From positions 1 through 38,374 of the forward strand of contig JAXDLD010000475.1 of NCBI GenBank assembly GCA_034666805.1: DNA of 38,374 nucleotides, given 5' to 3'. This document shows positions 4,908 through 38,317 of the stretch, in pieces (position 1 is the first letter of the stretch; each line of letters begins with the position of its first letter). Source of the DNA: Acidobacteriota bacterium. Lineage in GTDB: Bacteria; Acidobacteriota; Thermoanaerobaculia; Multivoradales; UBA5704. A program made the translations under genes and the position numbers. Under the pieces are notes generated by a model. That model was not told the DNA's origin. It searched no databases and saw only the letters and a list, made by a program, of their open reading frames with translations.

Positions 4908-5218
4908 AGATCCGCCGACAGGATTCCGACGACGACCGGGAAGAACACGTTGACGGCGACGAGGAAGCGGCCGGCCACCGGCCAAATCTCAGATTTGGGT
5001 ATGACAGACCCTTTCGGCGCATCGACATGCTGATCTCGTGCGAAGAATCCCTGTAAAGCGGCGCATCAGCCCTCCTGGACCTCAGTGCTAGGAACGCAGG
5101 AGGGGGATGATTCTTACAGGGCGCCATCTTGCCGTTGCTGGCGAAGTTCGTGGATCTGCCGCGGTGTCCATCGGGCGACCGGTATACTACACTCGGATCG
5201 ACGGCCGAGACCGAGCCT

Positions 5219-5560: not shown

Positions 5561-5778
5561 AGTGCCATGTCTGCGGCTCGACTCTGGTCCCTATCGTCAC
5601 GGACCTACCCTTCAAGCTGAGCGAGACGACCATCGTCATCGTGAAGGCCCTCCCGGTACTCCAGTGCGAAAGCTGCAGCGAGTACGCTCTGGAGGACGGG
5701 GTCCTGCAACAGGTGGACGCGATCCTTGAGCGGGCAGATCCGAGCGCGGAGTTGGAGATCGTCCGCTACGCTGCTTGA
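5524..5778 (+). CDS. YgiT-type zinc-finger protein (MqsA-like antitoxin N-domain)
   Basis: KCHVCGS...(32 aa)...CESCSEY forms a CxxC...CxxC finger. The real start may be the TTG at 5557, which overlaps the upstream TGA (TTGA) and has GGAG 8 nt upstream. Confidence 0.7.
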   Translation: MGARLENEEKALKCHVCGSTLVPIVTDLPFKLSETTIVIVKALPVLQCESCSEYALEDGVLQQVDAILERADPSAELEIVRYAA

Positions 5779-5782
5779 GGAC

Positions 5783-7012
5783 TCACGAGGCTTCCAAGAT
5801 GCGCGCTGGATCAGCGCCCACCACCGGCCCCTGCGCCACCGCGAGCCACCCCTTGAGGTACTCGCCCTGCGGATGGGTGACGGCCACGGGGTGGTCAGGG
5901 GCGGCGCCCAGGGGCGCCAGGAGGGCGAGGCGGACGCCGGCTTCGACCGCGGCGGCGAAGAGGATCTGGCGGAAGAGCTTGGTGTCGACCGCGCCGCTGC
6001 AACTGAAGGTGAGGAAGAGGCCGCCGGGGGCCAGGCGCTGGAGCGCCAGGCGGTTCAAGTCCTTGTAGGCGCGGGCCGCGGAGTCCAGGTCGGCGCGCTT
6101 GCGGACCAGGGGGGGCGGGTCGCAGACCACCAGGTCGTAACGCTCGCTCCTCTGCCTCAGGTCCTCGAAGACGTTCGCCTTCACCCACTCGGCACGATCC
6201 CCGGAGAGCCCGTTGGCCTCGTAGTGGCGGCGGCCCCGGTCGATCAGCTGGGCCGAGGACTCGACGTGGACCACCCGGGTGGCGCCGCCCCGCAGGGCAT
6301 AGAGGCCGACCGCTCCCGAGTGGGCGAAAAGGTCGAGCACCGAGCGGCCGGCGGCGTAGCGCTCGACCAGGCGCCGGTTCTCCCGCTGGTCACAGTAGAA
6401 GCCGGTCTTCTGCCCCGCCTCCAAGTCGGCGGTGAAATTTAAGCCCGACTCGCGGAAGGCGACTTCGGCCGGGATCTCCCCGGCGATCACCTCGTCCTCC
6501 CGGGTGAGGTCCTCGGCACGCCGCGCCGGGAGGTCGTTCGACTGCAAGATCGCCGTCCCCGGCAGGGCTTCGGCCAACGCTCCGTAGGCCTCGGTGCGCA
6601 AGGCCTCCAGGCCGGCCGCCGTCACCTGGCTGACCAGGACGTCGCCATAGCGGTCGACCGTCCAGCCCGGCAGGCCGTCCCCCTCGGCGTTGACGAGCCG
6701 ATAGCCGGTGGTGTCGGGAGGCAGCACCGCCCGGCGGAGAGCCTGGGCCTCGGCCAGGCGGGCGGCGAAGAAACGTTGGTCGATCGCGGCGGGCTCACCC
6801 TCCCCCCAGGTGAGCAGGCGGACCCGGATCTGCGAGCGCGGGCTGTAGAGGCCCACCCCCAGCGCCCGGCCGGAGGAGTCGACGACGAGCGCCAGAGGGG
6901 CCTCGTGCGAGCCCTCCGCGCGCGCCACCGACCCCGAGAAGAGCCAGGGGTGGCCGTCTAAAACCGACTTCTCGCGCCCCGGGTGGAGGACGACCCGGAC
7001 CGCGCTACCCAC
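5783..7012 (-). CDS. rlmI: class I SAM-dependent rRNA methyltransferase, RlmI-like (PUA-like N-domain + MTase)
   Basis: N-terminal LHPGREKSVLDGHPWLFSGSV, SAM-binding VLDLFAHSGAVGLYALRGGA, and motif IV VVCDPPPL. GTG start overlaps the stop of the preceding VWA gene by 8 nt. Confidence 0.75.
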   Translation of the reverse strand: MGSAVRVVLHPGREKSVLDGHPWLFSGSVARAEGSHEAPLALVVDSSGRALGVGLYSPRSQIRVRLLTWGEGEPAAIDQRFFAARLAEAQALRRAVLPPDTTGYRLVNAEGDGLPGWTVDRYGDVLVSQVTAAGLEALRTEAYGALAEALPGTAILQSNDLPARRAEDLTREDEVIAGEIPAEVAFRESGLNFTADLEAGQKTGFYCDQRENRRLVERYAAGRSVLDLFAHSGAVGLYALRGGATRVVHVESSAQLIDRGRRHYEANGLSGDRAEWVKANVFEDLRQRSERYDLVVCDPPPLVRKRADLDSAARAYKDLNRLALQRLAPGGLFLTFSCSGAVDTKLFRQILFAAAVEAGVRLALLAPLGAAPDHPVAVTHPQGEYLKGWLAVAQGPVVGADPARILEAS

Positions 7013-9191: not shown

Positions 9192-9260
9192 AAAGTCCCC
9201 CTTTCGGACTCGGATCGAACGGTTCATCAGGTCCTCATTTCAGTTTTCAGAGACTCTACC

Positions 9261-11465: not shown

Positions 11466-11474
11466 GAAGCCTCC

Positions 11475-13676: not shown

Positions 13677-13706
13677 GAGCCCCCCCCTTTCGGGATCAGG
13701 AAGAAT

Positions 13707-16028
13707 TCAGTTGACGACGAACGGGACGGAGCTCTCCCGCTTGCTGCCGGTCGCCGGGTTGCTGACCGCCACCCGGAGGACGTAGTCGCCCGCCGGCAGG
13801 CCCCGGGGCTCGAAGGTGGCGAGGAGCTTGTCGACCCCCGCGATGCCGGTCGCGGTGCGCTCGACGAGCGACAGGAGCCCGCCGGGCAGCACCTGCCCCT
13901 GGGCGGAGAGGACCTCGCCGTCGACCGCCAGCTTGCCGGCGCCCATGTTGTAGGCCACCAGGCAGAGCTTCGCCTTCTTCTCGCTCGACAGGGAGGGTCG
14001 GGCGGCGGGCACGTAGGGCTGGCCGTTGACGGTGAAGGGGTAGACGACCGAGCCGGACCCCTCCCCCGCGGCGCCCCCCTTCGGATGCTCGCGCACCATG
14101 AGCCAGCGGCCCGGCGCCTCGAAGAAGAGGGGGGGCAGGAGGTCGGGCTGCGCCTCGCCGTAGGCGGGGACGACGAGCGCCGAGTTCGCCGTCCCCGTCC
14201 GCCCGGTGTCGGCGTTCCGGACGAGGACCCGCACCCGGTACTGCCCGGGCGGGAGGTCCAGGTGACCGTAGTACTTGACCCCGGAGTCGAGGAGAGCCTG
14301 GCGCCCCTTCGCCACGTCGAGACCGAAGACCTGGGTGAAGAAGTCCTTCATCTCGCCGCGCTGGTTGGTGACGTAGGTGTAGAGCTCGAGCTTGAGCTTG
14401 TCGCCCTTCTGGCCGGCGAGGAGGCCCTTCCCCCCGGCCTCGATGATCACCGGCACGTAGGCGCGGTCGCGGGCGGCACGGAACGGCGCCACCAGGAGCG
14501 AGATGTCGACGTCTCGCCGCGGCACGGCGCTCAGGATGCCGTCCGAGGCGAGCAGGTTGCGCTCCAGGGCATCGAGCGAGCGGAACGGCCGCGGCGCGTA
14601 GTAGCCGGTGCGGTAGGAGAGCCGGGCGCCGGCCGGCAGCTTGGCCTTGACCCGCAGCCGGTGGTAGGCGCCGTCGAGCTTCAGGTCGCTGCGCTCGAAG
14701 GTCAGGAGGTAGGTGACGGTCGTCCGGTCGAGCACCCGGTCGAGCTGCTGGCGCAGGTTGTTGGCATCCTTGAACAGCTCGCCGCCGGTCTCGTTGGCCA
14801 TGTAGAAGAGCGCGTCCTGGCCGGTGTTGCGGATCGAGCCCGAGAGGTCGGCCCCGGCGCGCAGGCCGCCGATGTCGACCGCCTGGATGACGCAGTCGGC
14901 GCGGCGGAACTGCTCGAGCATGTCGTTGACCGACTTCTGGAGCTGGGTGTTGCCGAAGCGGTTGTCGCTGTCCACCCGCTCGTGGTGGCCCTCCAGGATG
15001 TCGGAATTCTCCTCTTCGGACTCGCTCCCCTCGGGGTTGCGGCCAAGGAGCAGCCGGCTGTCGAAACCCTCGGAGAAGTAGATCAGGTACTTGCGCCCCT
15101 TGACGCTGTCTAAGGCCTTCGCCAGGTCCCCCATCGAGCGGGCGAGCGCCTTGATCCGGGTGCGCTCGAAGCTGCGCTGGTCGCGGTCGGCCGCCTTGCC
15201 CACCGCCTTGATGCTCTCCAAGAGCGCCGCCTCGGTGTCCGCCCGGAGCTCGGCCGACTGGGGGGAGGTGTTGGAGTCCCGCGCGGTGCCGACGACGGTA
15301 TCCGACACCGGCTCCTCAATGACGAAGCGCAGGGGATCGACGCGCTGGGTCGACTGCGCGAGCTGGCGCGTTCCCAGGGTGTCGATGCCGCGCGCGAGCT
15401 GCGCCCGGTCGGAGGTGAAGGTGACGACCAGGCGCGGGCCGGTGTCGATCGAGAAGGTGGCGACGGCGGCGAGATCGGTGGGACGCAGAGACTGGAGGAG
15501 GAAGTCGCGCGCCGCCAGGCGGGCTTTCAACACGGCGATGGGATTCGAGAACGAGAGGTCGAAGAGCAGGAGGAAGTGGCGCCGGGCCGAGGAGACCGGT
15601 TCGGCGGCGGGGGGCGGCGGCACGGGCGCCGCCTGGGCGGCCGGCGGGGGGGAGAGGGTTTCCAGGTCCACCACCTCGAAGCCGGTGACCGGTTGCGCCG
15701 CGCCCTCGTCGTAGACCTCGAAGTCGGTGGCCTTGAGGCCGCGCACCGGCTGGCCGTCGCGCCCGGTGACGTTGACCGGCACCTCGACGGCTAAGACCTG
15801 CGAGGTGTCCTCGAACCGCTCCCTGGGGCCGGTCGCTTTCGGCGGCGTGCCGGTTGCCGGGGGTGGCGCCGGAGTCGCCGGGGTCGCCGAGGTGGCCGGC
15901 GGCGGCAGCGAGGGAGTGGCGGCGGCCACGGGCGACATTGGAGCCAGGAGGGCCAGGGGGAACGCCAGGAGGGCGATCGCCAGGGACAGGGGCTTCTGGG
16001 CGGGCATCTTCTGGGCGGGCATCGTCAT
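13707..16028 (-). CDS. exported VWA-domain protein, paralog 4 (divergent, canonical DxSxS MIDAS)
   Basis: Start placed at MTMPAQKMPAQKPLSLAIALLAFPLALLAP (GGAGAGG SD; avoids overlap with the upstream gene); the track start is 16190. Pro/Ala/Thr-rich linker, then RRHFLLLFDLSFSNP, RKYLIYFSEGFDS, CVIQAVDIGG. Confidence 0.85.
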   Translation of the reverse strand: MTMPAQKMPAQKPLSLAIALLAFPLALLAPMSPVAAATPSLPPPATSATPATPAPPPATGTPPKATGPRERFEDTSQVLAVEVPVNVTGRDGQPVRGLKATDFEVYDEGAAQPVTGFEVVDLETLSPPPAAQAAPVPPPPAAEPVSSARRHFLLLFDLSFSNPIAVLKARLAARDFLLQSLRPTDLAAVATFSIDTGPRLVVTFTSDRAQLARGIDTLGTRQLAQSTQRVDPLRFVIEEPVSDTVVGTARDSNTSPQSAELRADTEAALLESIKAVGKAADRDQRSFERTRIKALARSMGDLAKALDSVKGRKYLIYFSEGFDSRLLLGRNPEGSESEEENSDILEGHHERVDSDNRFGNTQLQKSVNDMLEQFRRADCVIQAVDIGGLRAGADLSGSIRNTGQDALFYMANETGGELFKDANNLRQQLDRVLDRTTVTYLLTFERSDLKLDGAYHRLRVKAKLPAGARLSYRTGYYAPRPFRSLDALERNLLASDGILSAVPRRDVDISLLVAPFRAARDRAYVPVIIEAGGKGLLAGQKGDKLKLELYTYVTNQRGEMKDFFTQVFGLDVAKGRQALLDSGVKYYGHLDLPPGQYRVRVLVRNADTGRTGTANSALVVPAYGEAQPDLLPPLFFEAPGRWLMVREHPKGGAAGEGSGSVVYPFTVNGQPYVPAARPSLSSEKKAKLCLVAYNMGAGKLAVDGEVLSAQGQVLPGGLLSLVERTATGIAGVDKLLATFEPRGLPAGDYVLRVAVSNPATGSKRESSVPFVVN

Positions 16029-16092
16029 CGGACCTCTCCGGGAAAGAGGCGGGACCGCTTCGGCAGCGCGGAGGGAACGGCGGCGCGCTCTG

Positions 16093-17190
16093 TCACTTTG
16101 CCAACATGCGGGCGAGCTCGCGAGCCTCCGGGTTGGTGGCGTCGAGCGTGAGAGCCCGCTCCAGGTGGTGCCGGGCCTTGTCCATTTCACCCAGCGCCAA
16201 GTATACCTTGACGAACCCCACGTGGACTTCGGGGATCTCGCTGTCCTGCTTGAAGGCCCGCGTCATGTATTCGAGGGCCTTCTGGTGGTCGCCGCGGGAG
16301 AGGGCCAGGTCCCCCTCGTAGACGAAGAAGTAGGGATTGGTCGTCTTCGACCCCTCGATCTTCTCGAGGATGGTGGCGGCCTCGCCCTGCCTGCCCAGCT
16401 GCTGGTAGGCGCGGGCGAGGTTGGTCAGGATGAGCTCGTCGTTGGGGTCGATGGCGAGGCCCCGCTGGTAGACCTCGAGGGCGCGGTCGGTCTGCCCCCG
16501 GCGGGCGTAGCACACCCCCAGGTTGTTCAGGGCCTTGGGGAACTCGGGGGCGATCCCGACGGCGACCTCGATCAGCTGCTGGGCCTTCTCGGCGTCGCCG
16601 GCGAGCAGGGCCTCGGCCCCCAGGTTGTTGTAGAAGTGGGCCGCGGCCGTGCGGTCGTCGATCGGCCTGAAGCTCTTGTAGGCCTTGGGCTTGAAGGGCA
16701 GGAAGTCGAACGTCGCGAGCTGGCCGTTGACGTAGACGCCGGCGACGATGTGCCCCTGGCTGATGACCAGGCCGCCGCGCCGGTTCCACTTCTGGAGGTC
16801 GGTGACCTCGACGTAGAACGGGTTCAACCCCTCCGCCCGCGCGATCCCCACGAACAGGTTGACGAAGGAGAGGCAGTTGCCCTCGCGGTCGCGGTAGGTC
16901 TCGACGGCGTTGCGGGTCGGCAGCAGGGAGTACTGGAGGCCGAGCCGGTTGAAGATGTAGTCGCGGACGGTGACGAGGCGCGTCATGTCGGCGGCGCCGG
17001 CGCCGAACTTCTTCGGCAGCTTGGCGCGGATCTCGTCGTTCAGATCGTAGGGGATGGCGATCTTCGCGGCGCGGTCGGCCCCCACCCGCCGCGCAAACTC
17101 GGCCCGGAGATGCCCCACCGAGTCGAAGGGCTGATACTCGGCACAGCCGAGGAACAGGAGAAGGAGAAGAGGCTGGAACCGACGCCACAT
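16093..17190 (-). CDS. lipoprotein with transglutaminase-like cysteine-protease core and C-terminal TPR repeats
   Basis: Internal Met MWRRFQPLLLLLFLGC (lipobox). Cys-His-Asp arrangement EGNCLSFVNLF...SQGHIVAG...ATFDF. The C-terminal half shows TPR periodicity (ALNNLGVCYARRGQTDRALEVYQRGLAIDPND...). Confidence 0.75.
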   Translation of the reverse strand: MWRRFQPLLLLLFLGCAEYQPFDSVGHLRAEFARRVGADRAAKIAIPYDLNDEIRAKLPKKFGAGAADMTRLVTVRDYIFNRLGLQYSLLPTRNAVETYRDREGNCLSFVNLFVGIARAEGLNPFYVEVTDLQKWNRRGGLVISQGHIVAGVYVNGQLATFDFLPFKPKAYKSFRPIDDRTAAAHFYNNLGAEALLAGDAEKAQQLIEVAVGIAPEFPKALNNLGVCYARRGQTDRALEVYQRGLAIDPNDELILTNLARAYQQLGRQGEAATILEKIEGSKTTNPYFFVYEGDLALSRGDHQKALEYMTRAFKQDSEIPEVHVGFVKVYLALGEMDKARHHLERALTLDATNPEARELARMLAK

Positions 17191-17378
17191 GGCAACCAGG
17201 ATACCAGGGAACGGCAGCACCCGGGCACGATCCAAAACTTTGGAGACAGCCTCCAATCCCCTGGATCGGGAGCCCGAAAAACAGCCCTCGGTTCATCCCT
17301 GAACAAACCAACAACCCTAGTATTTACAGTAAGTTACGCCGATCTCGAAGATAAATCTGCGAGTGGCACCCCCCTTGC

Positions 17379-17406
17379 TTGACCGGCCTTTGGCATGTTC
17401 TATACA
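17379..17406 (+). promoter_or_regulatory. sigma70-like promoter candidate for the TonB-dependent receptor gene
   Basis: TTGACC, 16-nt spacer, TATACA read directly from the sequence, in the locally AT-richer divergent intergenic region. Confidence 0.35.
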
Positions 17407-28468: not shown

Positions 28469-28619
28469 AGCCGACGTCCGCAAACTCCGTTTCGACTTCC
28501 CCCGGTTCTGCTCCCGCTTCACAAACTTGGTGACTCTGTCCAGGAGCTGCGCTTCGCGGTCGCCGGACTTAAGAGCAAAGTCAGGAGGCAACGTCTTCGA
28601 GATGTGGACTCTGGCTCCG

Positions 28620-29240
28620 GTGCCGCACCGTCGATGTCGAGGACCGGGACCGAGATGTCGAGCCCCTGGACTGAGACTCAGAGTTCCTGGACGTAATACC
28701 CGTGGTCCGGGACGTAGAGTCTCCGTCCCCTCGCCACGGTTGGACTCCAGGGTTTAAGACCGCCGTCCCGGTGCCGCGATCTCAAGTCCCGGTACTGCGA
28801 CCCCAAGTCGCGGGCCGGAGACTCAGCGCCCCACAACCAAGACCGCGATCCCGGGACCCCGACCCTCGGCCGGGGGACGGCAATTCGTCGTCCGGGTCTC
28901 GCGACGTCAAGTCCCGGGACCATGACCCAGAGCCGCGGGATGGCGGCCTTTCTCCCTGGCGGAGGACCGGAGTCCCGGGGCCATGAACCCAAGTCCCGGT
29001 GCTCTGTCTTCGAGTCCCGATGCCGAGACCCGCAATAACGGCAGCCCAAGCTTTGTCTAGGTCTCGGTCGTCAAGTCTCGGTACCGAGAGCCGAGCTAGC
29101 GGTCACCAGACGCGTTGTCTGGGGCCTCTGTCCTTGAGTCGCGGTACCGAGACCTGCGATGGCGTGCCGAAGGCACTTGTCCGGGTCTCTGTCTTCAAGT
29201 CTCGGGACCGAGACCCGTGATATTGGCACCCGGAAGCGTT
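28620..29240. repeat. degenerate tandem array R2 (~620 bp): ~21-nt sub-units, ~63-nt super-unit, near-palindromic core GTCTCGGTACCGAGAC
   Basis: Core copies at 28786, 28807, 28911, 28972, 29014, 29075, 29138 and 29199; the last four are spaced 61-63 nt apart. Intervening sub-units are also conserved (TTGTCYGGGNCTCTGTC; GNGATNGCGNNCACC). Lies between two convergent stop codons. Confidence 0.8.
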
Positions 29241-32000: not shown

Positions 32001-32026
32001 AAGAAGCTGGCCTAGAAGAAGCTGGC
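31997..32026. repeat. perfect 15-bp tandem duplication CTAGAAGAAGCTGGC x2 spanning two convergent stop codons
   Basis: Copy 1 contains the TAG of the HTH gene (31998..32000). Copy 2 contains the stop (32012..32014) and the last codons (ASFF) of the kinase gene. Confidence 0.9.
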
Positions 32027-33553
32027 GATGACCCGGAGCAGGGCGTCCGGTTCGGTGGGCTTCGTCAGGTGCAGGTCGAAACCGGCCTCGCTCGCCAGCC
32101 GCCGGTCCTCGGCCTGGCCGTAGCCGGTCAAGGCGATCAGCCGGGTGAAGGAGAGCTCGGAGTCGCTCCGCAGGGCCCGCGCCACCTGGTAACCGTCCAT
32201 CTCCCCCGGCAGGCCGATGTCGCAGAGCACCACCTCCGGCTGGGTGTCGTGGGCCCGGGCGATCCCCGTCGGGCCGTCATGGGCGACCGTCACCTCATGG
32301 CCGGTGAGCTCCAGGAAGAGGCGCAGGCTCTCCGCGGCGTCGACGTTGTCCTCGACGATCAGGATGCGGTGCGGCCGCGGACCGGAGACGGCCGGACGGG
32401 GGACGATCTCCTCGCGCATCGGCGCCAGCGGCAGGCGGAGGGTGAAGATCGAGCCCTGCCCCGGTCCGTCGCTCGCCGCCTCGATCGTGCCGCCGTGCAT
32501 CTCGACGAGCGACTTGACGAGCGCGAGCCCCAGCCCCAGCCCGGAGCCGCCGCGCGCCGCGTCCTCGCCCTGGCTGAAGGGCTCGAAGATGCGCGGCAGG
32601 AGCTCCCGGGGGATGCCGATCCCGGTATCGCGGACGGTCAGGGTCGCCATCCCGCCCCCCTCGTCTCCCGGCTCTCCCGGCAGGACATCCAGGGCGACCG
32701 CGATCTCCCCGCCCGCCTCGGTGAAGGCGCAGGCGTTCTCCAGCAGGTTGGCGAACGCCTGGGCCAGGCGCAGGCGGTCGCCCAGGGTCCACAGCGGCCG
32801 CTCCGGGAGGGCGACGGCGAGCCGGAGGTCGCGGTCCTCCAGGCGGTCGCCCAAGGCGTAGACGGCCCCGCGCACGAGGTCGGTCAGGTCCAGGCGCTCC
32901 CGCTGCAGGGCCACCTTGCCGCTCGACAGCCGCGAGACGTCCAGGAGGTCGTCGATCAGCCGGGTGAGCTGGAAGACCTGGCGCTCGGTGAGCTCGCGGA
33001 GCCGCTCGCGCTGCTCCTCGCTGACGTTGGGCAGGCGGGCGATGTGGAGCGAGTTGACGATCGGGGCGAGCGGGTTGCGCAGGTCGTGGGCGAGGTCGGC
33101 GAGGAACTCCTCCCGCGAACGTCCGCCCGCCCGCTCGCCGCCCGTACCGCCGCCGCCGCCCTGGGTGTCCTCCTCGACCCGGTGCAGGATGTAGGCGACC
33201 TCCCCCTCTTCGCCGTAGACCGGCGCGTTGACGAGGCGGATGGGGCCGGACCACAGCCCCTGGCCCGTCCGCCCCAGGCCGTAGCCGCGCAGACGGAGGG
33301 TGTCGGCCCGGCGGCTCTCGAGCACCCGGGCGAGCGAGGCCCGGAGCTCGCGGCCGAAGTCCTCCGTCCCCCCGGCGGCGAGGAGCTCGGGCAGGCCGCG
33401 GCCGACGATCTCGCCGCGCTCGGTCCCGGTGGCGCGAAGGTAGGCGTCGCTCGCCGCCACCACCGTCAGGTCCGGCGCCAGGGCCAGGTAGGGGTCGGGG
33501 GCCGACTCGAAGAGGGCGCGAAAGTCAGGGGTCGGGGTAGGCACGGGGCGCAT
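32012..33553 (-). CDS. hybrid sensor histidine kinase (PAS - HisKA - HATPase_c - receiver)
   Basis: Only the C-terminal 513 codons of track ORF 32012..35236 look genuine, starting MRPVPTPTPDFRALFESAPDPYLAL (PAS). H-box FLADLAHDLRNPL; N-box NLLENACAF; G-boxes VRDTGIGIP and GSGLGLGLALVKSLVEMHGG. Receiver ILIVEDNVD...VVLCDIGLPGEMDG...LTGY...HLTKP. Confidence 0.85.
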   Translation of the reverse strand: MRPVPTPTPDFRALFESAPDPYLALAPDLTVVAASDAYLRATGTERGEIVGRGLPELLAAGGTEDFGRELRASLARVLESRRADTLRLRGYGLGRTGQGLWSGPIRLVNAPVYGEEGEVAYILHRVEEDTQGGGGGTGGERAGGRSREEFLADLAHDLRNPLAPIVNSLHIARLPNVSEEQRERLRELTERQVFQLTRLIDDLLDVSRLSSGKVALQRERLDLTDLVRGAVYALGDRLEDRDLRLAVALPERPLWTLGDRLRLAQAFANLLENACAFTEAGGEIAVALDVLPGEPGDEGGGMATLTVRDTGIGIPRELLPRIFEPFSQGEDAARGGSGLGLGLALVKSLVEMHGGTIEAASDGPGQGSIFTLRLPLAPMREEIVPRPAVSGPRPHRILIVEDNVDAAESLRLFLELTGHEVTVAHDGPTGIARAHDTQPEVVLCDIGLPGEMDGYQVARALRSDSELSFTRLIALTGYGQAEDRRLASEAGFDLHLTKPTEPDALLRVIASFF

Positions 33554-33622
33554 TGTATCCAAACCCGTATAATGGGAAGAGTCATAGACCCCCGGTTGTT
33601 CCGCCGGCTGAGGAAGATCCGC

Positions 33623-35302
33623 ATGAAAAAACTTCTCGCTCTCGCAGTCCTCGGCCTCGGCATCGCCTCCGGCGCGGCCCGAGCGGACGTCCAGCCCGCG
33701 CATCCCGCGCTCCCCCCGGTCGCCCCCAAGGCCGCCGCCCCCAAGGCCGCCGCTCCGGGGCCGGCCAGCCCGATCCAGAAGAAGCTGGAGGAGGCCTTGA
33801 ACCGGATGGACAAGAACGACGACGCCGGAGCCATCCAGATCCTCGAGGCCCTGAAAAAAGACCCCGACGTCACCCCGCCCGTCCTCGCCCTCCTGGGCGC
33901 GCTCTACTTGAAGACCAACCGGCCGAAGGAGGCGATGGCGATCCTGAAGCCGCTCGCCGACGCCGCCGACGCCGACCCGGCGGTGCTCTTCAACGCCGGG
34001 CGGGCGGCCTTCGCCCTCGGCCAGGGCCCCGAGGGCGAGCACTACCTCGGGCGCTCGGTCGCGCTGGCTCCGGGCTCGCCGGCCGCCCGCACCCTGGGCC
34101 TCCTGCTCGCCCGCCAGGGTCGATCGGTGGCCGCCTTCGACGTCCTCATTCCCTGGGTGCAGGCCAATCCCACCGACTTCGAGGCCCGGCTCGCCACCGC
34201 CCTCCTGGCCGCCAACCTGCAGCGTCTGGCCGATGCCGAGGAGCTGCTCAAGGATCTGCCGGCCAACAACCCGAAGGTCCGGCTGCTCAAGGGCGACCTC
34301 GCCCTCCGCAAGGGGGACGCCAAGGCCGCCATCGCGACCCTCCGGCCGCTCGTCGACAGCCCGCCGCCGGGTTTCGACACCAGCGGCGGGATGCAGCTCG
34401 ACGCCCGCCGGCTCCTGGCCGACGCCTACCTGCGGACCGGGCAGTCCACCGAGGCGGTCAAGCTCCTCGCCGGCAAGGGGGGTGACGCCCCCACCGCCCT
34501 GCTCCTTGCCCGGGCCCAGTACCAGAGCGGCAATCTCCAGGCCGGGCTCGCCACCCTCACGCCCTACGCCCCCAAGATCCTGAAGGCGGGCCAGCCGCGC
34601 GACCCCGACCTCGTCGCCGAGATGGCGCTCGCCTACGGGCGGATGCTCGCCGCCGCCAACCGGCAGCCGGAGGCGGCGAGCGCCTTGGCCGTCGCCACCC
34701 GCCTGGACCCCGACAGCACGGAGGCCTGGCAGGCCTACGGGCAGACCCTGACCGCCCTCGGCAAGAAGGACGAGGCCGGCAAGGCCCTCGCCCGCTTCCG
34801 CGACCTCTCCGCCGCCCGCACGAAAGCCAAGGCCCCGGCGGCGCCGGCCGTCGACCCGGTGGTCGCCCTGATGGAGAAGGGCGAGCTCGACAAAGCCGTC
34901 GCCGCGGCCCGTGAGCAGATCAAGGCGACGCCCAAGGACCTCGGCCCGCGGGCCCTGGAGGTGCGCATCCTGCTCCTCCAGAAGCATCCCGACGAGGCCC
35001 TGAAGGCCGCCCAGCGGATGGTCGACCTCGCCCCCGGCAGCCCGGACGCGATCTATGCCCGCGGGGTCTGCCAGCTCGCCCTCCAGAAGGCCAAGGAGGC
35101 GGAGGCGGACTTCCGGCAGGCCCTGAAGCTCCAGCCCCAGTACCTGCCGGCCATGAACGACTTGGCGGTGCTGCTCATGCTGCAGGGCCAGAAGGCGGAG
35201 GCGAGGACCCTGCTCCAGAAGGTGCTCAAGGCGCACCCCGACGACAAGCTGGCGGCCGAGAACCTGAAGAAGCTCGACACCGAGGGCAAGGCGGGCGGGT
35301 GA
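33623..35302 (+). CDS. exported TPR-repeat protein
   Basis: Genuine part of track ORF 32069..35302. GAGGAAG SD; signal peptide MKKLLALAVLGLGIASGAARA. Multiple TPR-like helical repeats (...AWQAYGQTLTALGKKDEAGKALARF..., AIYARGVCQLALQKAKEAEADFRQALKLQPQY). Confidence 0.75.
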   Translation: MKKLLALAVLGLGIASGAARADVQPAHPALPPVAPKAAAPKAAAPGPASPIQKKLEEALNRMDKNDDAGAIQILEALKKDPDVTPPVLALLGALYLKTNRPKEAMAILKPLADAADADPAVLFNAGRAAFALGQGPEGEHYLGRSVALAPGSPAARTLGLLLARQGRSVAAFDVLIPWVQANPTDFEARLATALLAANLQRLADAEELLKDLPANNPKVRLLKGDLALRKGDAKAAIATLRPLVDSPPPGFDTSGGMQLDARRLLADAYLRTGQSTEAVKLLAGKGGDAPTALLLARAQYQSGNLQAGLATLTPYAPKILKAGQPRDPDLVAEMALAYGRMLAAANRQPEAASALAVATRLDPDSTEAWQAYGQTLTALGKKDEAGKALARFRDLSAARTKAKAPAAPAVDPVVALMEKGELDKAVAAAREQIKATPKDLGPRALEVRILLLQKHPDEALKAAQRMVDLAPGSPDAIYARGVCQLALQKAKEAEADFRQALKLQPQYLPAMNDLAVLLMLQGQKAEARTLLQKVLKAHPDDKLAAENLKKLDTEGKAGG

Positions 35303-37047
35303 GGGCGGGTCGACTCCTCCTCGCCGTCACCCTGCTCGTAGCGGCGGCCGGCGCCGCCCGCCCGGCGACTCCGGCGGCTCCGGCGGCAGGCGAGGACCCG
35401 CTGGCGGCGCTCGCCACCCGGCTGGGCGAGGCCGGCCCCGATCTCCTCCCCCGGCTCCAGGCCGACCTGGGCGCCGCCGCCGCCGCCCGCGCCCGCCGGC
35501 TCGCCGCCCAGGGGGAAGCCGCCTGGACCGACCGCGAGATCGCCGATCTCCTCCGCCTCTCGCTCCTCGACCCGCCCCGCTTCGTCGACGACCCCGCCTT
35601 CCGGGAGCGGGCCCTGGGAGTTCTCGCGCAGTCCCTCGACCGGCAGGCGCCGGCCGCCCTCCGCGACCGCCTGCTCGACCAGCTCGGCGGCTTTCCGGGC
35701 TTCGACTTCGCCGCCGGAGAGCGGGTGGGCTGGGCCTGGGGAGCCCTGCCGCGGCGGAGCTCCGAGCGCCAGATCGACACCCCCGCGCTCGCCGGCCCTC
35801 CCCTCCGTTTCGACGCCGACGACGGCGGGGACGGCCGCTCGCTCGCCGCCTCCGTCTACTCGCTCCCCTCGGCCTTCTTCGACGCCGGGACGGCGGCGGC
35901 CTTCCTCGCCGGGGTGCGGGCTGTGGACCCGGAGCGGCGGATCGTCGTCCTCGCCGATCTCGCCCAGGTCCGGGCCCTGGCCGACCGGGGGCGCGCCCTG
36001 CACGCCGACCTCCTCCTGAACCACGGCCGCTCCTACTCGCCCTGGCCGCGCGACCCGTTCAGCCTCGTCCATAGGGGGGAGGGCCGGAGCGGCCGGGTGG
36101 TGGTCCTCGTGCGGCCGAACCTCCAGCCCGGGCGGGAGGAGGACGCGAGCCTCGGCCCGGAGCTGGTGCAGGACCTCCCCCCGGCCCTGGACGCCGCCTG
36201 GGGGGAGCCCCGCTGGGCCCGCGCGCCGGTGCCCTTCCACAACGGCCAGGTGCTGCTCACGGCGGGCGCCGCCTGGATCACGCTCCATACCCTGGAGCCG
36301 CGTATCCTCGCCCTCCTCGGGGAGAGCCGGGTGCCGGTCGCGAGCTTCGCCACCGCGGCGGGGATCGCCCGTTATCTCGACGCGGCCCGCCGCGCCACCT
36401 CGGAGCTCGCCGACCTCTACGGCCGCTCGGTCCGCTTCGTCCATCCTCTCCCCACCGCCGGCTCGGCCCTCGTGACGACCCTCGGGGGCGGCGCCGGCTA
36501 CGATCTCGACTCGCTCGTCACCCTGCTTCCCCCCCGCGCTCCGGGAGGCAAGCCGCAGGCGCTCGTCGCCGACGTAGCGGCCGGCCGCGCCCTCCTCGCC
36601 CGGCTCCCAGCCGCCGACTGGCAGGCGCTCGCCGCGGGCTACGGCCTCCAGGCGGAAGGCCTGGCACCGGCGATGACCGCCGCCCAGCGCGCGCCGCGGC
36701 CGGAGGCCCTGGCCCCGTACCTCGACCTCATCGCCATCCACTTGAAGAGCCTGGGATTCGCCGTCGACCGCCTGCCCCTCCTCTTCGTGCCGGTCCCTCT
36801 CCTGCGGGACACCGGGGGCCTCGACTACCCCGATTTCCTCCTCACCTGGAACAACGTGGTCGTGGAGAAGCGGGCCGGGAAGGTGCGGGCGGAGGGGTTT
36901 GCTTCCCTCCTGCCGGCCGGCGACGCCATCGCGCGGGAGGTTTTCGTCCGCGCCGGGGTCCACCTCGACCTCCTGCCGCCACTGGTCCAGAGCGTCGTGC
37001 GGAACGGCGGCTACCGCTGCGCCTCGAACCACCTGCGCAACGGTTAG
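35299..37047 (+). CDS. exported protein with guanidino-group-modifying (pentein; agmatine/peptidyl-arginine deiminase-like) features
   Basis: GTGA start/stop overlap with the TPR gene; signal peptide MRAGRLLLAVTLLVAAAGAA. Motifs reminiscent of the deiminase fold: SPWPRDPF, PFHNGQVL, LTWNNVVV, and C-terminal NGGYRCASNH (GGxxxC catalytic-Cys-like). The family call is tentative. Confidence 0.5.
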   Translation: MRAGRLLLAVTLLVAAAGAARPATPAAPAAGEDPLAALATRLGEAGPDLLPRLQADLGAAAAARARRLAAQGEAAWTDREIADLLRLSLLDPPRFVDDPAFRERALGVLAQSLDRQAPAALRDRLLDQLGGFPGFDFAAGERVGWAWGALPRRSSERQIDTPALAGPPLRFDADDGGDGRSLAASVYSLPSAFFDAGTAAAFLAGVRAVDPERRIVVLADLAQVRALADRGRALHADLLLNHGRSYSPWPRDPFSLVHRGEGRSGRVVVLVRPNLQPGREEDASLGPELVQDLPPALDAAWGEPRWARAPVPFHNGQVLLTAGAAWITLHTLEPRILALLGESRVPVASFATAAGIARYLDAARRATSELADLYGRSVRFVHPLPTAGSALVTTLGGGAGYDLDSLVTLLPPRAPGGKPQALVADVAAGRALLARLPAADWQALAAGYGLQAEGLAPAMTAAQRAPRPEALAPYLDLIAIHLKSLGFAVDRLPLLFVPVPLLRDTGGLDYPDFLLTWNNVVVEKRAGKVRAEGFASLLPAGDAIAREVFVRAGVHLDLLPPLVQSVVRNGGYRCASNHLRNG

Positions 37048-37256
37048 AGCGCGGCAGGATCGGAATCGTTTGTACAGGGGAGGAGCAGGGGGGAGGACAG
37101 GAGGGGGGTGGCATCGCGAAGCTTCCTACCGCTTCCTGCCGCGCAGGCTCCTAGCTAGCAACCATAGGTAATGGGTTCGTCCACACAGAATTTGGGACAG
37201 GAGACGTCGGTGCTCTCGACCTGTACCGGCGCCGCACCCAGCCGTGCGGCTGTGGG

Positions 37257-37288
37257 GCGCTCCGCTCCTCGGCCGAGGAGCGGAGCGC
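37257..37288 (-). terminator. perfect 32-nt palindrome (16-bp arms) about 20 nt downstream of precursor gene A
   Basis: GCGCTCCGCTCCTCGG|CCGAGGAGCGGAGCGC read directly from the sequence. No U-tract, so it could be a terminator, an RNA-stabilising hairpin or a protein-binding palindrome. Confidence 0.45.
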
Positions 37289-37308: not shown

Positions 37309-37455
37309 CTAACAGAAAGCGCAGGCCGTCTGCGCACAGTTGGTGCACGCCGAGACCGTGCCGGCACCCTCCGCTTCCTTAACCTGCTCCTGATCGAGTC
37401 GGCGGATCGACTCTTTGTGCACCACGAGCTTCTTGACGGTTGCCTTCTTCTTCAT
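37309..37455 (-). CDS. small Cys-rich peptide precursor A (48 aa) with Lys-rich double-glycine-type leader
   Basis: Internal Met of track ORF 37309..37563, preceded by GGAGGTG 6 nt upstream. MKKKATVKKLVVHKESIRRLDQEQVKEAEGAG|TVSACTNCAQTACAFC. The leader is shared with peptide B. Confidence 0.7.
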   Translation of the reverse strand: MKKKATVKKLVVHKESIRRLDQEQVKEAEGAGTVSACTNCAQTACAFC

Positions 37456-37578
37456 TGGCTCACCTCCGAGGCTTTGAGGCACTATTGCCTTCTGCCCTTG
37501 AGCATATTGCAAATGGCGAGCCTCGGGCGAGGCCAAACGCCGGCGGCCATCGGCGGCGAGCAACGCGGAACCGGTCGC

Positions 37579-37683
37579 GAGACACTACGGCGGGCGGTTG
37601 AGGCGCAAGAGCCTCGCCTGGAGACACTACGGAAGGTCGTTGAGACACAAGAGGGGGCTTTGGAGACACTACGGGAGGTCGTG
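37579..37683. repeat. tandem array R3a: five 21-nt units (42-nt super-unit) with core GAGACAC on the + strand
   Basis: Units start at 37579, 37600, 37621, 37642 and 37663 in exact 21-nt register, alternating GAGACACTACGG and GAGRCRCAAGAG. This is the reverse complement of the R3b unit. Confidence 0.85.
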
Positions 37684-37734
37684 GGGTCCTGTCCCAACAG
37701 TCTGTTGGTGGTACAGGGGCGTAAGTTGAGGGAA

Positions 37735-37766
37735 GGGGGAGGGTCTGCGCGGGGAGACCCTCCCCC
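37735..37766 (-). terminator. GC hairpin (10-12 bp stem, 8-nt loop) 10 nt downstream of precursor gene B
   Basis: GGGGGAGGGTCT-GCGCGGGG-AGACCCTCCCCC. A second imperfect palindrome (CCTGT-C-CCAACAG-T-CTGTTGG-TGGT-ACAGG) follows at ~37688..37718. Confidence 0.45.
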
Positions 37767-37775
37767 TGGGACTGG

Positions 37776-37934
37776 CTAGCAAGGGTACCGGCCACTCTGG
37801 CAGATAACGGGGTCGGTGGGGGGGCATCGGAACGTGTTGCAGTTGTCGGTGATAGCCCCTCCGACCACTGTTGCGCTGGTTAGCGCTACCGTCTCCTTCG
37901 ACAACACCAGCTTCTTCACAGCCTTCTTCTTCAT
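37776..37934 (-). CDS. small Cys-rich peptide precursor B (52 aa) with double-glycine leader (not in the ORF track)
   Basis: Translated codon by codon by hand: MKKKAVKKLVLSKETVALTSATVVGG|AITDNCNTFRCPPTDPVICQSGRYPC, with TAG at 37776..37778. AAGGAGG lies 6 nt upstream of the ATG. Confidence 0.7.
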   Translation of the reverse strand: MKKKAVKKLVLSKETVALTSATVVGGAITDNCNTFRCPPTDPVICQSGRYPC

Positions 37935-38034
37935 GAGTCCTCCTTGAAGGGCTGGATTCTATCTCAGCTTGGGTATCCCGGCAGTGGCCGGCGGTGGCGC
38001 CAACAGACTCTTAGGACAGTACCCCAGGCGGACT

Positions 38035-38236
38035 TCTTGTGTCTCCAGGCTTCCGCTAGTGTCTCCAGCCCGACTTCTTGTGTCTCCACGGCGTTCCGTA
38101 GTGTCTATAAGCCCGACTCTCATGTCTCCAGGACCGTCGGTAGTGTCTCCAGGCGAAGTTCTTGTGTCTCCGCGGCCCTCGGTAGTGTCCATAAACCCCT
38201 CCCCCGGGCCTGGAGACCGGGCCGTTGTGTCTCCAG
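38035..38236. repeat. tandem array R3b: ten 21-nt units (42-nt super-unit) with core GTGTCTCC on the + strand, inverted relative to R3a
   Basis: Cores at 38039, 38059, 38080, 38101, 38122, 38143, 38164, 38185, (38206 degenerate/inverted GGAGAC) and 38227. They alternate CTTGTGTCTCC and GTAGTGTCTCC. Confidence 0.9.
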
Positions 38237-38317
38237 GATGAACTCACAACCGTCGCCGAGTGGCCTGATCCCTTAAACGTCCTCCCGTCGTGGCCGAGAT
38301 GGCGTAGAATCTAAGAG

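What the first reader, a model, noticed from the sequence alone, without database searches (positions are those of the whole stretch)
37309..37934. Two tandem mini-genes for Cys-rich peptides with a shared Lys-rich double-glycine leader (candidate RiPP/bacteriocin precursors)
Peptide A is MKKKATVKKLVVHKESIRRLDQEQVKEAEGAG-TVSACTNCAQTACAFC (48 aa, hidden inside a longer track ORF). Peptide B is MKKKAVKKLVLSKETVALTSATVVGG-AITDNCNTFRCPPTDPVICQSGRYPC (52 aa, absent from the track, translated by hand). Both have near-consensus Shine-Dalgarno sites at ideal spacing. The N-termini are nearly identical (MKKKA.VKKLV..KE[ST]), followed by a Gly-Gly / Gly-Ala-Gly junction. The cores are unrelated, each with exactly four Cys plus several Ser/Thr, and each ends in Cys-stop. 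Conserved leader plus hypervariable Cys/Ser/Thr core is the hallmark of exported, post-translationally modified peptides. The K-K-L-x-L-x-K-E-[ST] leader resembles the GG-type natural-product precursor leaders described for Bacteroidota-type peptides. No C39-peptidase ABC exporter, radical-SAM, lanthionine synthetase or cyclodehydratase gene is inside the window. The genes sit 440 nt from the window edge, so the partner genes, if any, lie beyond 38374 or elsewhere.
Basis: partly seen in the sequence, partly recalled or inferred. Interest (0 to 1): 0.8.

Follow-up and report, generated by a model that had tools for sequence, protein, structure and literature searches.

The report
Orphan lanthipeptide-type precursor peptide genes
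Two real, conserved mini-genes in an Acidobacteriota genome encode precursors of Cys/Ser/Thr-rich secreted peptides whose leader matches the curated class I lanthipeptide leader family; they are ordinary in kind, and unusual only because their modifying enzymes lie elsewhere and they sit among 21-base repeat arrays.

Summary
Both peptides exist exactly as described: pepA at 37309-37455(-), 48 aa, and pepB at 37776-37934(-), 52 aa. Each has its own Shine-Dalgarno site and a strong terminator hairpin. Both are under purifying selection and have many metagenomic orthologues.

- **Leader family.** The leader is a curated one. pepA passes NCBIfam NF038153 (class I lanthipeptide leader L1a) at 28.3 bits against a cutoff of 22. 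pepB scores 18.2, below cutoff. 72 of 83 relatives match that model, and only 9 match TIGR04149.
- **Family size.** A profile search finds 9,982 clusters.
- **Core pattern.** In 102 non-redundant cores, 405 of 416 Cys have their own Ser/Thr 2-7 residues N-terminal, against 257±9 in shuffles. There is no such signal C-terminal of Cys and no even-Cys bias. This is lanthionine topology, not disulfide.
- **Missing enzymes.** No LanB, LanC, radical-SAM maturase or C39 exporter lies in the window or within 10 kb in about 19 independent loci. Maturation in trans is inferred, not shown.
- **Also found.** A decayed third precursor lies at 37155-37214. Phased 21-nt GGAGACAC arrays lie upstream of both genes, in opposite orientations. 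pepA has a sigma-54-like element.

The host is Acidobacteriota, probably Thermoanaerobaculia.

Verdict: new members of a known kind, of moderate interest.

The parts
37776..37934 (-). pepB. A 52-aa precursor: leader MKKKAVKKLVLSKETVALTSATVVGG, core AITDNCNTFRCPPTDPVICQSGRYPC. The core has 4 Thr/Ser, each 3-5 residues before one of 4 Cys.
   Evidence: The same gene is called on JGI contigs. There are 13 orthologues with a conserved core. It scores 18.2 bits on NF038153, below the cutoff of 22.
37939..37945 (-). Shine-Dalgarno site AAGGAGG of pepB, 4 nt before the ATG.
   Evidence: Read directly. The same AAGGAGGACTC-ATG is seen in L002 and L004.
37956..37961 (-). Likely -10 box TAGAAT of pepB (inferred).
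   Evidence: Read. A TAGAAT or TAGACT box sits at a similar distance before relatives' genes in L002, L004 (both genes), L008 and L032. The generic sigma-70 scan found no full -35/-10 pair.
37734..37767 (-). Terminator hairpin of pepB, with a 13-bp G+C stem.
   Evidence: Inverted repeat I12. The RNA fold is -27.8 kcal/mol, z = -4.97. It is conserved in L002.
37309..37455 (-). pepA. A 48-aa precursor: leader MKKKATVKKLVVHKESIRRLDQEQVKEAEGA, core GTVSACTNCAQTACAFC.
   Evidence: It scores 28.3 bits on NF038153 against a cutoff of 22. Orthologues are P0001-P0006 and P0031-P0037. It shows 5 synonymous and 0 non-synonymous differences against L002.
37460..37467 (-). Shine-Dalgarno site GGAGGTGA of pepA.
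   Evidence: Read. It is identical in L002 and L033.
37508..37523 (-). Candidate sigma-54 (-24/-12) promoter AGGCTCGCCATTTGCA for pepA (inferred).
   Evidence: It has 2 mismatches to TGGCACG-N4-TTGCW and is one of only 4 sites in the window with 2 or fewer mismatches. It is invariant in L002 although the flanks carry indels. TGG…TTGCA is kept at the same distance in L033. The GC of the -12 element is lost in the more distant L015.
37257..37288 (-). Terminator hairpin of pepA, a perfect 16+16-nt palindrome.
   Evidence: Inverted repeat I8. The RNA fold is -36.4 kcal/mol, z = -4.35.
37578..37684 (+). Array 1: five phased 21-nt units with core (G/T)GAGACAC. It lies 130-214 nt upstream of the pepA ATG, in reverse orientation relative to the gene.
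   Evidence: GGAGACAC occurs 8 times in the window, all here or in array 2, against 1.75±1.4 expected.
37694..37708 (.). Palindrome CCAACAGTCTGTTGG at the inner end of array 1. Its imperfect mate is at 38000-38015.
   Evidence: Inverted repeat I4; read.
38024..38240 (-). Array 2: 9-10 phased 21-nt units, alternating GGAGACAC-AAGAA… and GGAGACAC-TACCG… for a 42-nt super-period. It lies 112-300 nt upstream of the pepB ATG, in forward orientation. Together with array 1 it forms a 100-nt imperfect inverted repeat around pepB.
   Evidence: (D1, D2, I1-I7). The relative L002 lacks 57 nt of it, about 3 units.
37155..37214 (-). Remnant 3' end of a third precursor gene (…STDVSCPKFCVDEPITYGC-stop). It has no leader and no start codon.
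   Evidence: It matches a subfamily profile at E = 2e-5. Its last 15 residues are identical to the C-terminus of the full-length relative P0242. The segment is deleted in L002.

Best explanation
pepA and pepB are two independently transcribed genes for ribosomal precursor peptides. They belong to the 'L1a' class I lanthipeptide leader family (LxLxKx5L … G-G/A). The host is Acidobacteriota, probably class Thermoanaerobaculia.

**Shown:**
- The genes are real, conserved and under purifying selection.
- The leader belongs to that curated family.
- Each gene has its own ribosome-binding site and terminator.
- Across the whole family, every Cys of the core is preceded by its own Ser/Thr.

**Inferred mechanism:**
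1. After translation, the Lys-rich amphipathic leader docks the peptide to a lanthionine-forming enzyme set. This would be LanB-type dehydratase plus LanC-type cyclase, or another lanthionine synthetase, encoded elsewhere in the genome.
2. The four Ser/Thr are dehydrated.
3. Each Cys adds to the dehydro residue 2-5 positions upstream, giving four mostly non-overlapping thioether rings. In pepB these are T3-C6, T8-C11, T14-C19 and S21-C26. In pepA the four Ser/Thr pair with C6, C9, C14 and C17.
4. A C39-peptidase ABC exporter, also unlinked, cuts after GG (B) or GA (A) and secretes the product.

The locus is a small, decaying island of such genes (B, A and a truncated third). It sits in accessory DNA next to a nucleotidyltransferase-type toxin-antitoxin gene.

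The phased 21-nt GGAGACAC arrays are most simply upstream binding arrays for a transcription activator. They would serve pepB's sigma-70-type promoter and pepA's sigma-54-like promoter. This last step is the weakest.
For: **Gene reality**
- establish the genes.
- Against L002, pepA has 5 synonymous and 0 non-synonymous changes.
- The terminators fold at z = -4.4 and -5.0.

**Leader family**
- pepA scores 28.3 bits on NF038153, above the cutoff of 22.
- 72 of 83 relatives match NF038153, against 12 for L1b and 9 for TIGR04149.
- PF28317 (Lant_leader_dom) is on record for relatives.
- The LxLxKx5L + GG motif of Bacteroidetes class I LanAs is described in PMC7268733.
- pepA has hydrophobic residues at -4, -7, -12 and -15 from the cut site.

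**Thioether topology**
- In 102 non-redundant cores, 405 of 416 Cys can each be given a distinct Ser/Thr 2-7 residues upstream. Shuffled cores give 257±9.
- 92 of 102 cores are fully matchable, against 16.6±3.3 in shuffles.
- The same test downstream of Cys gives 248 of 416, which equals random.
- Cys counts are 58 even and 44 odd.
- 54 of 102 cores end in Cys.

**Host**
- Four TIGR03436 acidobact_VWFA paralogues lie in the window.
- Relatives lie in Thermoanaerobaculia and Acidobacteriota MAGs.
- Thermoanaerobaculia do make lanthipeptides (PMC13083261).

**Arrays and promoters**
-.
Against: - No LanB, LanC, LanM, radical-SAM maturase or C39/PCAT gene lies in the 38-kb window.
- None lies within 10 kb of a family member in about 19 independent loci.
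- I could not scan whole genomes, so the presence of such enzymes in these genomes is unproven.
- pepB's own leader score is below the curated cutoff. Its hydrophobic -7/-12/-15 pattern is poor.
- Both A and B have an even number of Cys, which is compatible with two disulfides.
- The sigma-54 element is not kept in the distant A-like locus L015. No enhancer-binding protein is nearby.
- Relatives in L004, L015 and L033 lack GGAGACAC arrays.
- Enrichment of arrays next to peptide genes is not significant: 7 of 14 against 31% expected, p = 0.10.
Confidence: 0.6

Rival explanations
1. The peptides are unmodified, or only disulfide-bonded, double-glycine-leader peptides. They would resemble class II bacteriocins or peptide pheromones. 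A trans-encoded C39 ABC transporter would export and cut them, and they would fold oxidatively in the periplasm or outside the cell.
For: - No modifying enzyme lies near any of about 19 loci.
- A and B each have four Cys, and A has two CxxC pairs.
- The leader ends in GG or GA.
- The 21-nt phasing of a 10-nt direct repeat upstream is the geometry of LytTR-regulated bacteriocin and pheromone promoters (PMC2766830).
Against: - Family-wide, 43% of non-redundant cores have an odd number of Cys.
- Each Cys has its own upstream Ser/Thr, about 16 sd above shuffles. There is no such signal downstream. A disulfide fold does not predict this.
- The leader matches the lanthipeptide model.
- No PCAT or LytTR gene was found nearby.
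Confidence: 0.2
2. The peptides are substrates of a radical-SAM maturase. This would be TIGR04149-type, or ranthipeptide/sactipeptide-like thioethers, rather than a lanthionine synthetase.
For: - 9 of 83 relatives also match TIGR04149, and one matches an rSAM RiPP model.
- IMG names two relatives 'natural product precursor'.
- One locus (L032) has a radical-SAM gene about 5.4 kb from a family member.
Against: - A and B give no TIGR04149 hit even at E = 10.
- The L1a lanthipeptide model matches 8 times more members.
- No radical-SAM gene is adjacent in the other 18 loci.
- The strict rule of Ser/Thr N-terminal to Cys is the lanthionine rule.
Confidence: 0.13
3. The two ORFs are chance ORFs or dead relics with no product.
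For: A truncated third copy lies next door. A relic of a B-like start lies upstream of the A-like gene in L033. Both show that this family does decay.
Against: - The genes have intact SD, start and stop in all relatives.
- Substitutions in pepA are synonymous only.
- There are dozens of orthologues with conserved cores.
- There are 9,982 related clusters.
Confidence: 0.02

Closest known systems
Bacteroidota-type class I lanthipeptide precursors (NCBIfam NF038153 lant_leader_L1a / Pfam PF28317 Lant_leader_dom; the LxLxKx5L…GG leaders of Walker et al. 2020, including the pinensin family)
   Same: - The leader HMM matches: pepA is above cutoff, and 72 of 83 relatives match.
- The N-terminus is Lys-rich, with the K-K-L-x-L-x-K-E-[ST] motif and a GG/GA cut site.
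- The core is short and rich in Cys, Ser and Thr, with Ser/Thr N-terminal to each Cys.
   Different: - The host is Acidobacteriota (Thermoanaerobaculia), not Bacteroidota.
- The genes are monocistronic.
- They are never next to LanB, LanC or a C39 protease in about 19 loci. The described Bacteroidetes clusters usually carry these genes.
- pepB is below the curated score.
Prochlorosins (ProcA precursors with one ProcM, class II, marine cyanobacteria)
   Same: Many precursor genes share a conserved leader and have very diverse cores. They are scattered through the genome far from the synthetase (noted in PMC7268733).
   Different: - Prochlorosins have a Nif11-type leader, not L1a.
- They use a class II enzyme.
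- Here the existence of a shared promiscuous enzyme is only inferred.
TIGR04149 (GG_sam_targ_CFB) rSAM-modified RiPP precursors
   Same: The leader shape is similar: MKK…KKL.L.KE.I..L…GG.
   Different: The model does not hit A or B. Only 9 of 83 relatives match. No rSAM/SPASM neighbour is present.
Class II double-glycine bacteriocin and pheromone genes with LytTR-regulated promoters (for example sil, blp, pln, com)
   Same: They have a GG leader cut by a C39 ABC exporter. A 9-10-bp direct repeat lies at 21-bp spacing upstream of the peptide genes (PMC2766830).
   Different: - Those promoters carry two repeats. Here there are 5-10, and in opposite orientations at the two genes.
- No LytTR regulator, kinase or exporter is nearby.
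- The cores here follow a thioether rule.
ThaA/TheA class II lanthipeptides of Thermoanaerobaculia (Nature 2026, PMC13083261)
   Same: They come from the same bacterial class, have a Cys-rich core after a GG site, and have experimentally shown lanthionine rings.
   Different: Their leader is of the mersacidin type (MKKQQVIRAWKDEEY…ISGG). Their genes are clustered with LanM and a GMC oxidase.

Membership tests
NF038153 lant_leader_L1a / PF28317 (class I lanthipeptide precursor, Bacteroidota-type leader) | The leader scores at or above the curated HMM cutoff of 22 bits. | tested here: met
   pepA scores 28.3 bits, E = 1.5e-6. pepB scores only 18.2 bits, below cutoff, so it is a member by family alignment only. 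72 of 83 relatives match at E <= 0.01.
NF038153 lant_leader_L1a / PF28317 (class I lanthipeptide precursor, Bacteroidota-type leader) | The leader has an LxLxKx5L motif and ends in Gly-Gly (Walker et al. 2020). | tested here: met
   pepA has L9-V-V11-H-K13-x5-L19, with Val in place of the second Leu, and ends in GA. pepB has L-V-L-S-K-x4-L and ends in GG. The family consensus is KKLVLxKETVRxL…GG.
NF038153 lant_leader_L1a / PF28317 (class I lanthipeptide precursor, Bacteroidota-type leader) | The core has Ser/Thr placed N-terminal to each Cys, as ring donors. | tested here: met
   A and B each have 4 Ser/Thr for 4 Cys. Family-wide, 405 of 416 Cys are matchable upstream against 257±9 in shuffles. 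The downstream test is random.
NF038153 lant_leader_L1a / PF28317 (class I lanthipeptide precursor, Bacteroidota-type leader) | LanB dehydratase and LanC cyclase are encoded with the precursor. | tested here: not met
   None is in the window. None lies within 10 kb in about 19 loci. Presence elsewhere in the genome could not be tested.
NF038153 lant_leader_L1a / PF28317 (class I lanthipeptide precursor, Bacteroidota-type leader) | The mature peptide contains dehydrated residues and (methyl)lanthionine. | not testable with these tools
   This needs mass spectrometry. Expected masses are given.
TIGR04149 GG_sam_targ_CFB (rSAM-modified RiPP precursor) | An HMM match to TIGR04149. | tested here: not met
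   There is no hit for A or B at E <= 10. 9 of 83 relatives match.
TIGR04149 GG_sam_targ_CFB (rSAM-modified RiPP precursor) | A neighbouring radical-SAM/SPASM maturase. | tested here: not met
   The window and the loci have none. The one exception is an rSAM gene 5.4 kb away in L032.
Double-glycine (C39/PCAT-processed) leader peptides | A G-G/A/S cut site with hydrophobic residues at -4, -7, -12 and -15. | tested here: met
   pepA has A, V, L and I at those positions. pepB has only V at -4, with S, T and S at the others, so it meets the feature only in part.
Double-glycine (C39/PCAT-processed) leader peptides | A C39-peptidase ABC exporter in the locus. | tested here: not met
   The window has only a truncated ABC ATPase fragment, at 4506-4985. 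None is present in the related loci.
Prochlorosin-like dispersed precursor libraries | Many precursors with a shared leader and diverse cores, unlinked to the synthetase. | tested here: inconclusive
   Dispersal and diversity are met: there are 2-3 genes per locus, varied contexts and 9,982 clusters. A shared synthetase was not demonstrated. The leader is not of the Nif11 or NHLP type.
Sigma-54 promoter (for pepA) | GG-N10-GC with a TGGCAC…TTGCW consensus, plus an upstream activator site. | tested here: inconclusive
   The site has 2 mismatches. It is conserved in L002 and L033 but not in L015. Hits with 3 or fewer mismatches are not over-represented in the window. No enhancer-binding protein gene is nearby.
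LytTR-type activator sites (for the arrays) | A pair of 9-10-bp direct repeats separated by 11-12 bp, next to the promoter, with a LytTR regulator present. | tested here: inconclusive
   The geometry is met: a 10-nt core at exact 21-nt phase (PMC2766830). The copy number is 5-10 rather than 2, the orientation is opposite at the two genes, and no LytTR gene was seen in the window.

The most novel reading that the evidence does not exclude
Thermoanaerobaculia-type Acidobacteriota may carry a prochlorosin-like combinatorial library built on a class I-type leader. It would consist of large numbers of unclustered, individually promoted and terminated precursor genes that are gained, duplicated and lost in accessory DNA. 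All would be matured in trans by one promiscuous thioether-forming enzyme set. Their expression would be wired through lineage-specific arrays of 21-bp phased repeats, which would be a so-far undescribed regulatory or structural DNA element of these genomes.
Probability: 0.25. Interest if true: 0.65.

Novelty: new member of a known kind. Interest (0 to 1): 0.42.

Why it matters
The kind is already curated (NF038153/PF28317), so the genes themselves are not a surprise. Three points are useful.

1. The family extends to Acidobacteriota and is very large: 9,982 clusters at 50% identity.
2. A purely sequence-based, directional Ser/Thr-to-Cys statistic supports thioether rings, even though no enzyme is linked to the genes.
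3. The precursors are consistently unclustered. Cluster-centred miners such as antiSMASH or RODEO would therefore miss them. If one enzyme set matures them in trans, it would be a naturally promiscuous catalyst of practical interest.

The recurrent 20-21-nt arrays in these genomes are an unexplained feature that deserves its own study.

Tried and rejected
1. **Maturase or exporter in the window.** Pfam and NCBIfam scans of all long ORFs and several short ones found none. The four roughly 735-aa proteins without Pfam hits are acidobact_VWFA paralogues. The ABC hit at 4506-4985 is a truncated ATPase fragment.
2. **Partner genes just beyond the window edge.** The 128-kb relative L002 shows 10 kb past the edge. 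It holds a nucleotidyltransferase, RibD_C, PIN, FG-GAP, CNNM, MFS and MGMT genes, none of them relevant.
3. **The convergent 582-aa neighbour (35299-37047) as a tailoring enzyme.** It has no Pfam, NCBIfam or PDB hit. The 586-aa protein at the same position in L008 is an unrelated sequence by reading. A single-sequence AlphaFold model was unusable, with pLDDT 38. My impression of a deiminase-like C-terminal Cys motif is untested.
4. **Guilt by association over about 19 loci.** No recurrent neighbour was found.
5. **The genome-collection scan.** It used a narrow pattern and returned only 5 genome loci and 10 metagenome loci. No second scan was allowed, so LanB/LanC presence in the same genomes could not be checked.
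6. **More leader genes in the window.** There are none beyond A and B.
7. **Rfam.** Nothing was found in the region.
8. **Generic sigma-70 scan.** There was no full match.
9. **Enrichment of arrays near peptide genes.** It was not significant, p = 0.10, and my coding mask was crude.
10. **Literature.** I found no description of this Acidobacteriota family or of the 21-nt arrays.
Full report
**1. Observation**

Reading the region and the ORF list confirms both peptides letter for letter.
- pepA lies at 37309-37455 on the minus strand and is 48 aa. It is embedded in an 84-aa TTG ORF.
- pepB lies at 37776-37934 on the minus strand and is 52 aa.
- GGAGGTGA (37460-37467) and AAGGAGG (37939-37945) each sit 4 nt before the respective ATG.

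A profile built from the family finds only these two leader-bearing ORFs among all six-frame ORFs of the window, with E = 4e-31 and 7e-20. Public gene calls on two other contigs are exactly the 48-aa and 52-aa products.

**2. The genes are real**

An alignment with a 128-kb relative (L002) shows five differences in pepA, all at third codon positions and all synonymous. It shows one conservative Ile-to-Val change in pepB. The flanking non-coding DNA carries indels.

Each gene is followed by a strong hairpin:
- 37257-37288 folds at -36.4 kcal/mol, z = -4.35.
- 37734-37767 folds at -27.8 kcal/mol, z = -4.97.

So these are two monocistronic units, not an operon.

pepA has 6 close orthologues at 75-98% identity. 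pepB has 13 at 69-82% identity. Within each group the core is conserved, including every Cys and the Ser/Thr in front of it.

**3. Family**

- pepA passes the curated NCBIfam model NF038153, 'lant_leader_L1a, class I lanthipeptide', at 28.3 bits against a cutoff of 22. pepB scores 18.2. TIGR04149 gives no hit for either, even at E = 10.
- A profile search of the 5.8-billion-protein set returned 804 relatives with the leader MKKKTVKKLVLxKETVRxL…(V/A)GG and very diverse Cys-rich cores.
- Of 83 diverse members, 72 match NF038153, 12 match the sister model L1b and 9 match TIGR04149.
- Several carry a precomputed hit to Pfam PF28317, Lant_leader_dom.
- An exhaustive HMMER search of 1.84 billion cluster representatives finds 9,982 clusters at E <= 0.001.
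- Walker et al. 2020 describe this leader type for Bacteroidetes class I LanAs: LxLxKx5L, often ending in GG, with a C39 protease in the cluster (PMC7268733).
- By family alignment, pepA is cut after G-A (…KEAEGA|GTVSAC…). It has the classical hydrophobic -4/-7/-12/-15 pattern. pepB has a shorter linker and a poorer pattern.

**4. A sequence-only test of the chemistry**

If the Cys form lanthionines, each needs its own Ser/Thr a few residues N-terminal. If they form disulfides, Cys numbers should be even and Ser/Thr placement should not matter.

In 102 non-redundant cores from 240 relatives:
- 405 of 416 Cys can be matched one-to-one with a Ser/Thr 2-7 residues upstream. Shuffles of the same cores give 257±9.
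- 92 of 102 cores are completely matchable, against 16.6±3.3 in shuffles.
- The mirror test, with Ser/Thr downstream of Cys, gives 248 of 416. That is indistinguishable from random. Only 5 of 102 cores are fully matchable this way.
- Cys counts are 58 even and 44 odd.
- About half of the cores end in Cys.

Smaller sets gave the same answer.

pepB fits perfectly: T3-C6, T8-C11, T14-C19 and S21-C26. These four pairs are kept in all orthologues while other positions vary. pepA has four Ser/Thr for four Cys. This is the ring topology of lanthipeptides. I regard it as the main evidence for the proposed mechanism. It is inference, not chemistry.

**5. What is missing**

No lanthionine synthetase, radical-SAM maturase or C39 exporter lies in the window. 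Two observations explain the apparent candidates:
- The large proteins without Pfam hits are four acidobact_VWFA paralogues.
- The only ABC hit is a truncated ATPase fragment.

The relative L002 shows the 10 kb beyond the window edge, with nothing relevant.

Across about 19 independent loci with family members, the neighbours are unrelated housekeeping or accessory genes. These often include toxin-antitoxin genes, and once an IS3 transposase. They never include a maturase. One radical-SAM gene lies 5.4 kb away in L032.

Many loci hold two or three family members. The family is therefore systematically unclustered, as prochlorosin precursors are. I could not scan whole genomes, so a trans-encoded enzyme set is inferred.

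Thermoanaerobaculia are known to make lanthipeptides, but the characterised ThaA and TheA have a different, mersacidin-type leader and are clustered with LanM (PMC13083261).

**6. Gene turnover**

Just downstream of pepA's terminator, 37155-37214 encodes …STDVSCPKFCVDEPITYGC-stop. It has no leader and no start codon.
- It matches the 'C-x-x-C-[LV]-D-E-P-I' subfamily at E = 2e-5.
- Its last 15 residues are identical to the C-terminus of the full-length relative P0242.
- The segment is deleted in L002.

In L033 an A-like gene is preceded by a relic of a B-like start, SD-ATGAAGAAGAAGGCTG…. The locus is thus a small island of precursor genes that are gained and lost.

**7. Regulatory anatomy**

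For pepB, a TAGAAT box lies at 37956-37961. Similar TAGAAT or TAGACT boxes stand before relatives' genes.

For pepA, AGGCTCGCCATTTGCA (37508-37523) has two mismatches to the sigma-54 consensus.
- It is invariant in L002.
- It is retained as TGG…TTGCA in L033.
- It is degenerate in L015.

It remains a candidate only.

The rest of the intergenic DNA is filled by phased direct repeats. All eight exact GGAGACAC copies of the window lie here, against 1.75 expected.
- Nine to ten units at exact 21-nt spacing lie from -300 to -112 of the pepB ATG, in forward orientation.
- Five units lie from -214 to -130 of the pepA ATG, in reverse orientation.
- Together they form a 100-nt imperfect inverted repeat around pepB. 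Each arm ends in a CCAACAG…CTGTTGG palindrome.
- L002 has about three units fewer.

A 10-nt core with an 11-nt spacer is the geometry of LytTR activator sites at bacteriocin and pheromone promoters (PMC2766830). However, those sites come in pairs, and no such regulator is nearby.

I therefore propose upstream activator arrays with low confidence. Relatives elsewhere lack GGAGACAC arrays.

**8. A wider, unexplained pattern**

In the 19 loci, 18 of 22 tandem arrays have a base period of 20-21 nt. They often show 42-, 63- or 84-nt super-periods. Their unit sequences are completely different, and many are partly palindromic.

Several lie directly next to family members: L020, L023, L024, L028-30, L032, L004 and L011.

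The window also has such arrays far from any peptide gene, at 2249-2437 and about 28600-29230. Against a crude non-coding background, the enrichment near peptide genes is not significant: 7 of 14 against 31% expected, p = 0.10.

**9. Verdict**

- The genes are new members of a known, curated kind: class I-type lanthipeptide precursors with the Bacteroidota-type GG leader. Here they occur in Acidobacteriota and are unlinked to their enzymes.
- Confidence that they are genuine precursor genes of this family is about 0.9.
- Confidence that the cores are thioether-cross-linked by trans-encoded enzymes is about 0.6.
- Interest is moderate. The systematic lack of clustering and the 21-nt arrays are the parts worth following.

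Noticed in passing
window 2249-2437 and about 28600-29230; loci L008 8917-9131, L017 19841-20141, L018 5063-5311, L020 3095-3497, L023 1246-1415, L024 6961-7475, L028 9800-10044, L032 9367-9727: Tandem arrays with a 20-21-nt base period are a recurrent feature of intergenic DNA in these Acidobacteriota contigs. They often show 42-, 63- or 84-nt super-periods. The units are lineage-specific and often partly palindromic. 18 of 22 arrays in 19 loci have this period. Their function is unknown.
   Followed up: partly
window 38024-38240 compared with L002 9270-9420: The array upstream of pepB differs by 57 nt, about three 21-nt units, between two otherwise roughly 97%-identical relatives. This indicates copy-number instability.
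   Followed up: yes
window 35299-37047 (+): A 582-aa protein converges on pepA. It has no Pfam, NCBIfam or PDB sequence match. It is 95% conserved in L002 but absent next to family members elsewhere. Its C-terminus, …NGGYRCASNH, looked deiminase-like to me, but this is untested. The single-sequence AlphaFold model was unusable, with pLDDT 38.
   Followed up: partly
window 7005-16190 (-): Four tandem paralogues of 733-827 aa have no Pfam hit. All match TIGR03436 acidobact_VWFA (E = 1e-40 to 1e-55), which marks the host as Acidobacteriota. A transglutaminase-core/TPR protein follows at 16093-17256.
   Followed up: partly
window 32012-35302, both strands: Two ORFs of more than 1,000 aa overlap on opposite strands, and both have strong Pfam hits. 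The hits do not overlap: PAS-HisKA-HATPase-REC lies at about 32026-33523 (-), and TPR at about 34403-35258 (+). Public gene calls give a 513-aa kinase and a 568-aa TPR protein as divergent neighbours. This is an artefact of long ORFs in 73%-GC DNA.
   Followed up: yes
window 3957-5778: This stretch is a toxin-antitoxin-rich accessory patch. It holds a PemK/MazF toxin (3957-4301, E = 1e-25) with an upstream small gene, a DUF4258 protein (5129-5560) with a small zinc-ribbon-like partner, and a truncated ABC ATPase fragment (4506-4985). Family members elsewhere also sit near PhdYeFM, PIN, TacA-like and nucleotidyltransferase genes.
   Followed up: partly
window 17364-17379 (+): This is the best sigma-54 consensus match in the window: TGGCACCCCCCTTGCT, with 1 mismatch. 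It lies 183 nt upstream of the CarboxypepD_reg/TonB-type outer-membrane protein gene at 17562.
   Followed up: no
L033 2939-2966: A relic lies 70 nt upstream of an A-like precursor gene. It consists of an SD followed by ATGAAGAAGAAGGCTG, identical to the first 16 nt of pepB, and then unrelated sequence. This suggests that the B-A tandem is ancestral and that B was deleted there.
   Followed up: no
L032 3080-7247: A radical-SAM/Fer4_12 gene, small ORFs and a MacB/FtsX-type permease lie about 5 kb from a family member. Two further family members lie at 117-643. This may be a separate RiPP cluster.
   Followed up: no
L028-L030 (contigs with 50% G+C): A family member (MKKVEIKKLVLSKETIADL…KGGQVTKYCGTG…) occurs in a much lower-GC organism. 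It is again followed within 300 nt by a long 21/42-nt array, with more than 15 units in L030.
   Followed up: partly
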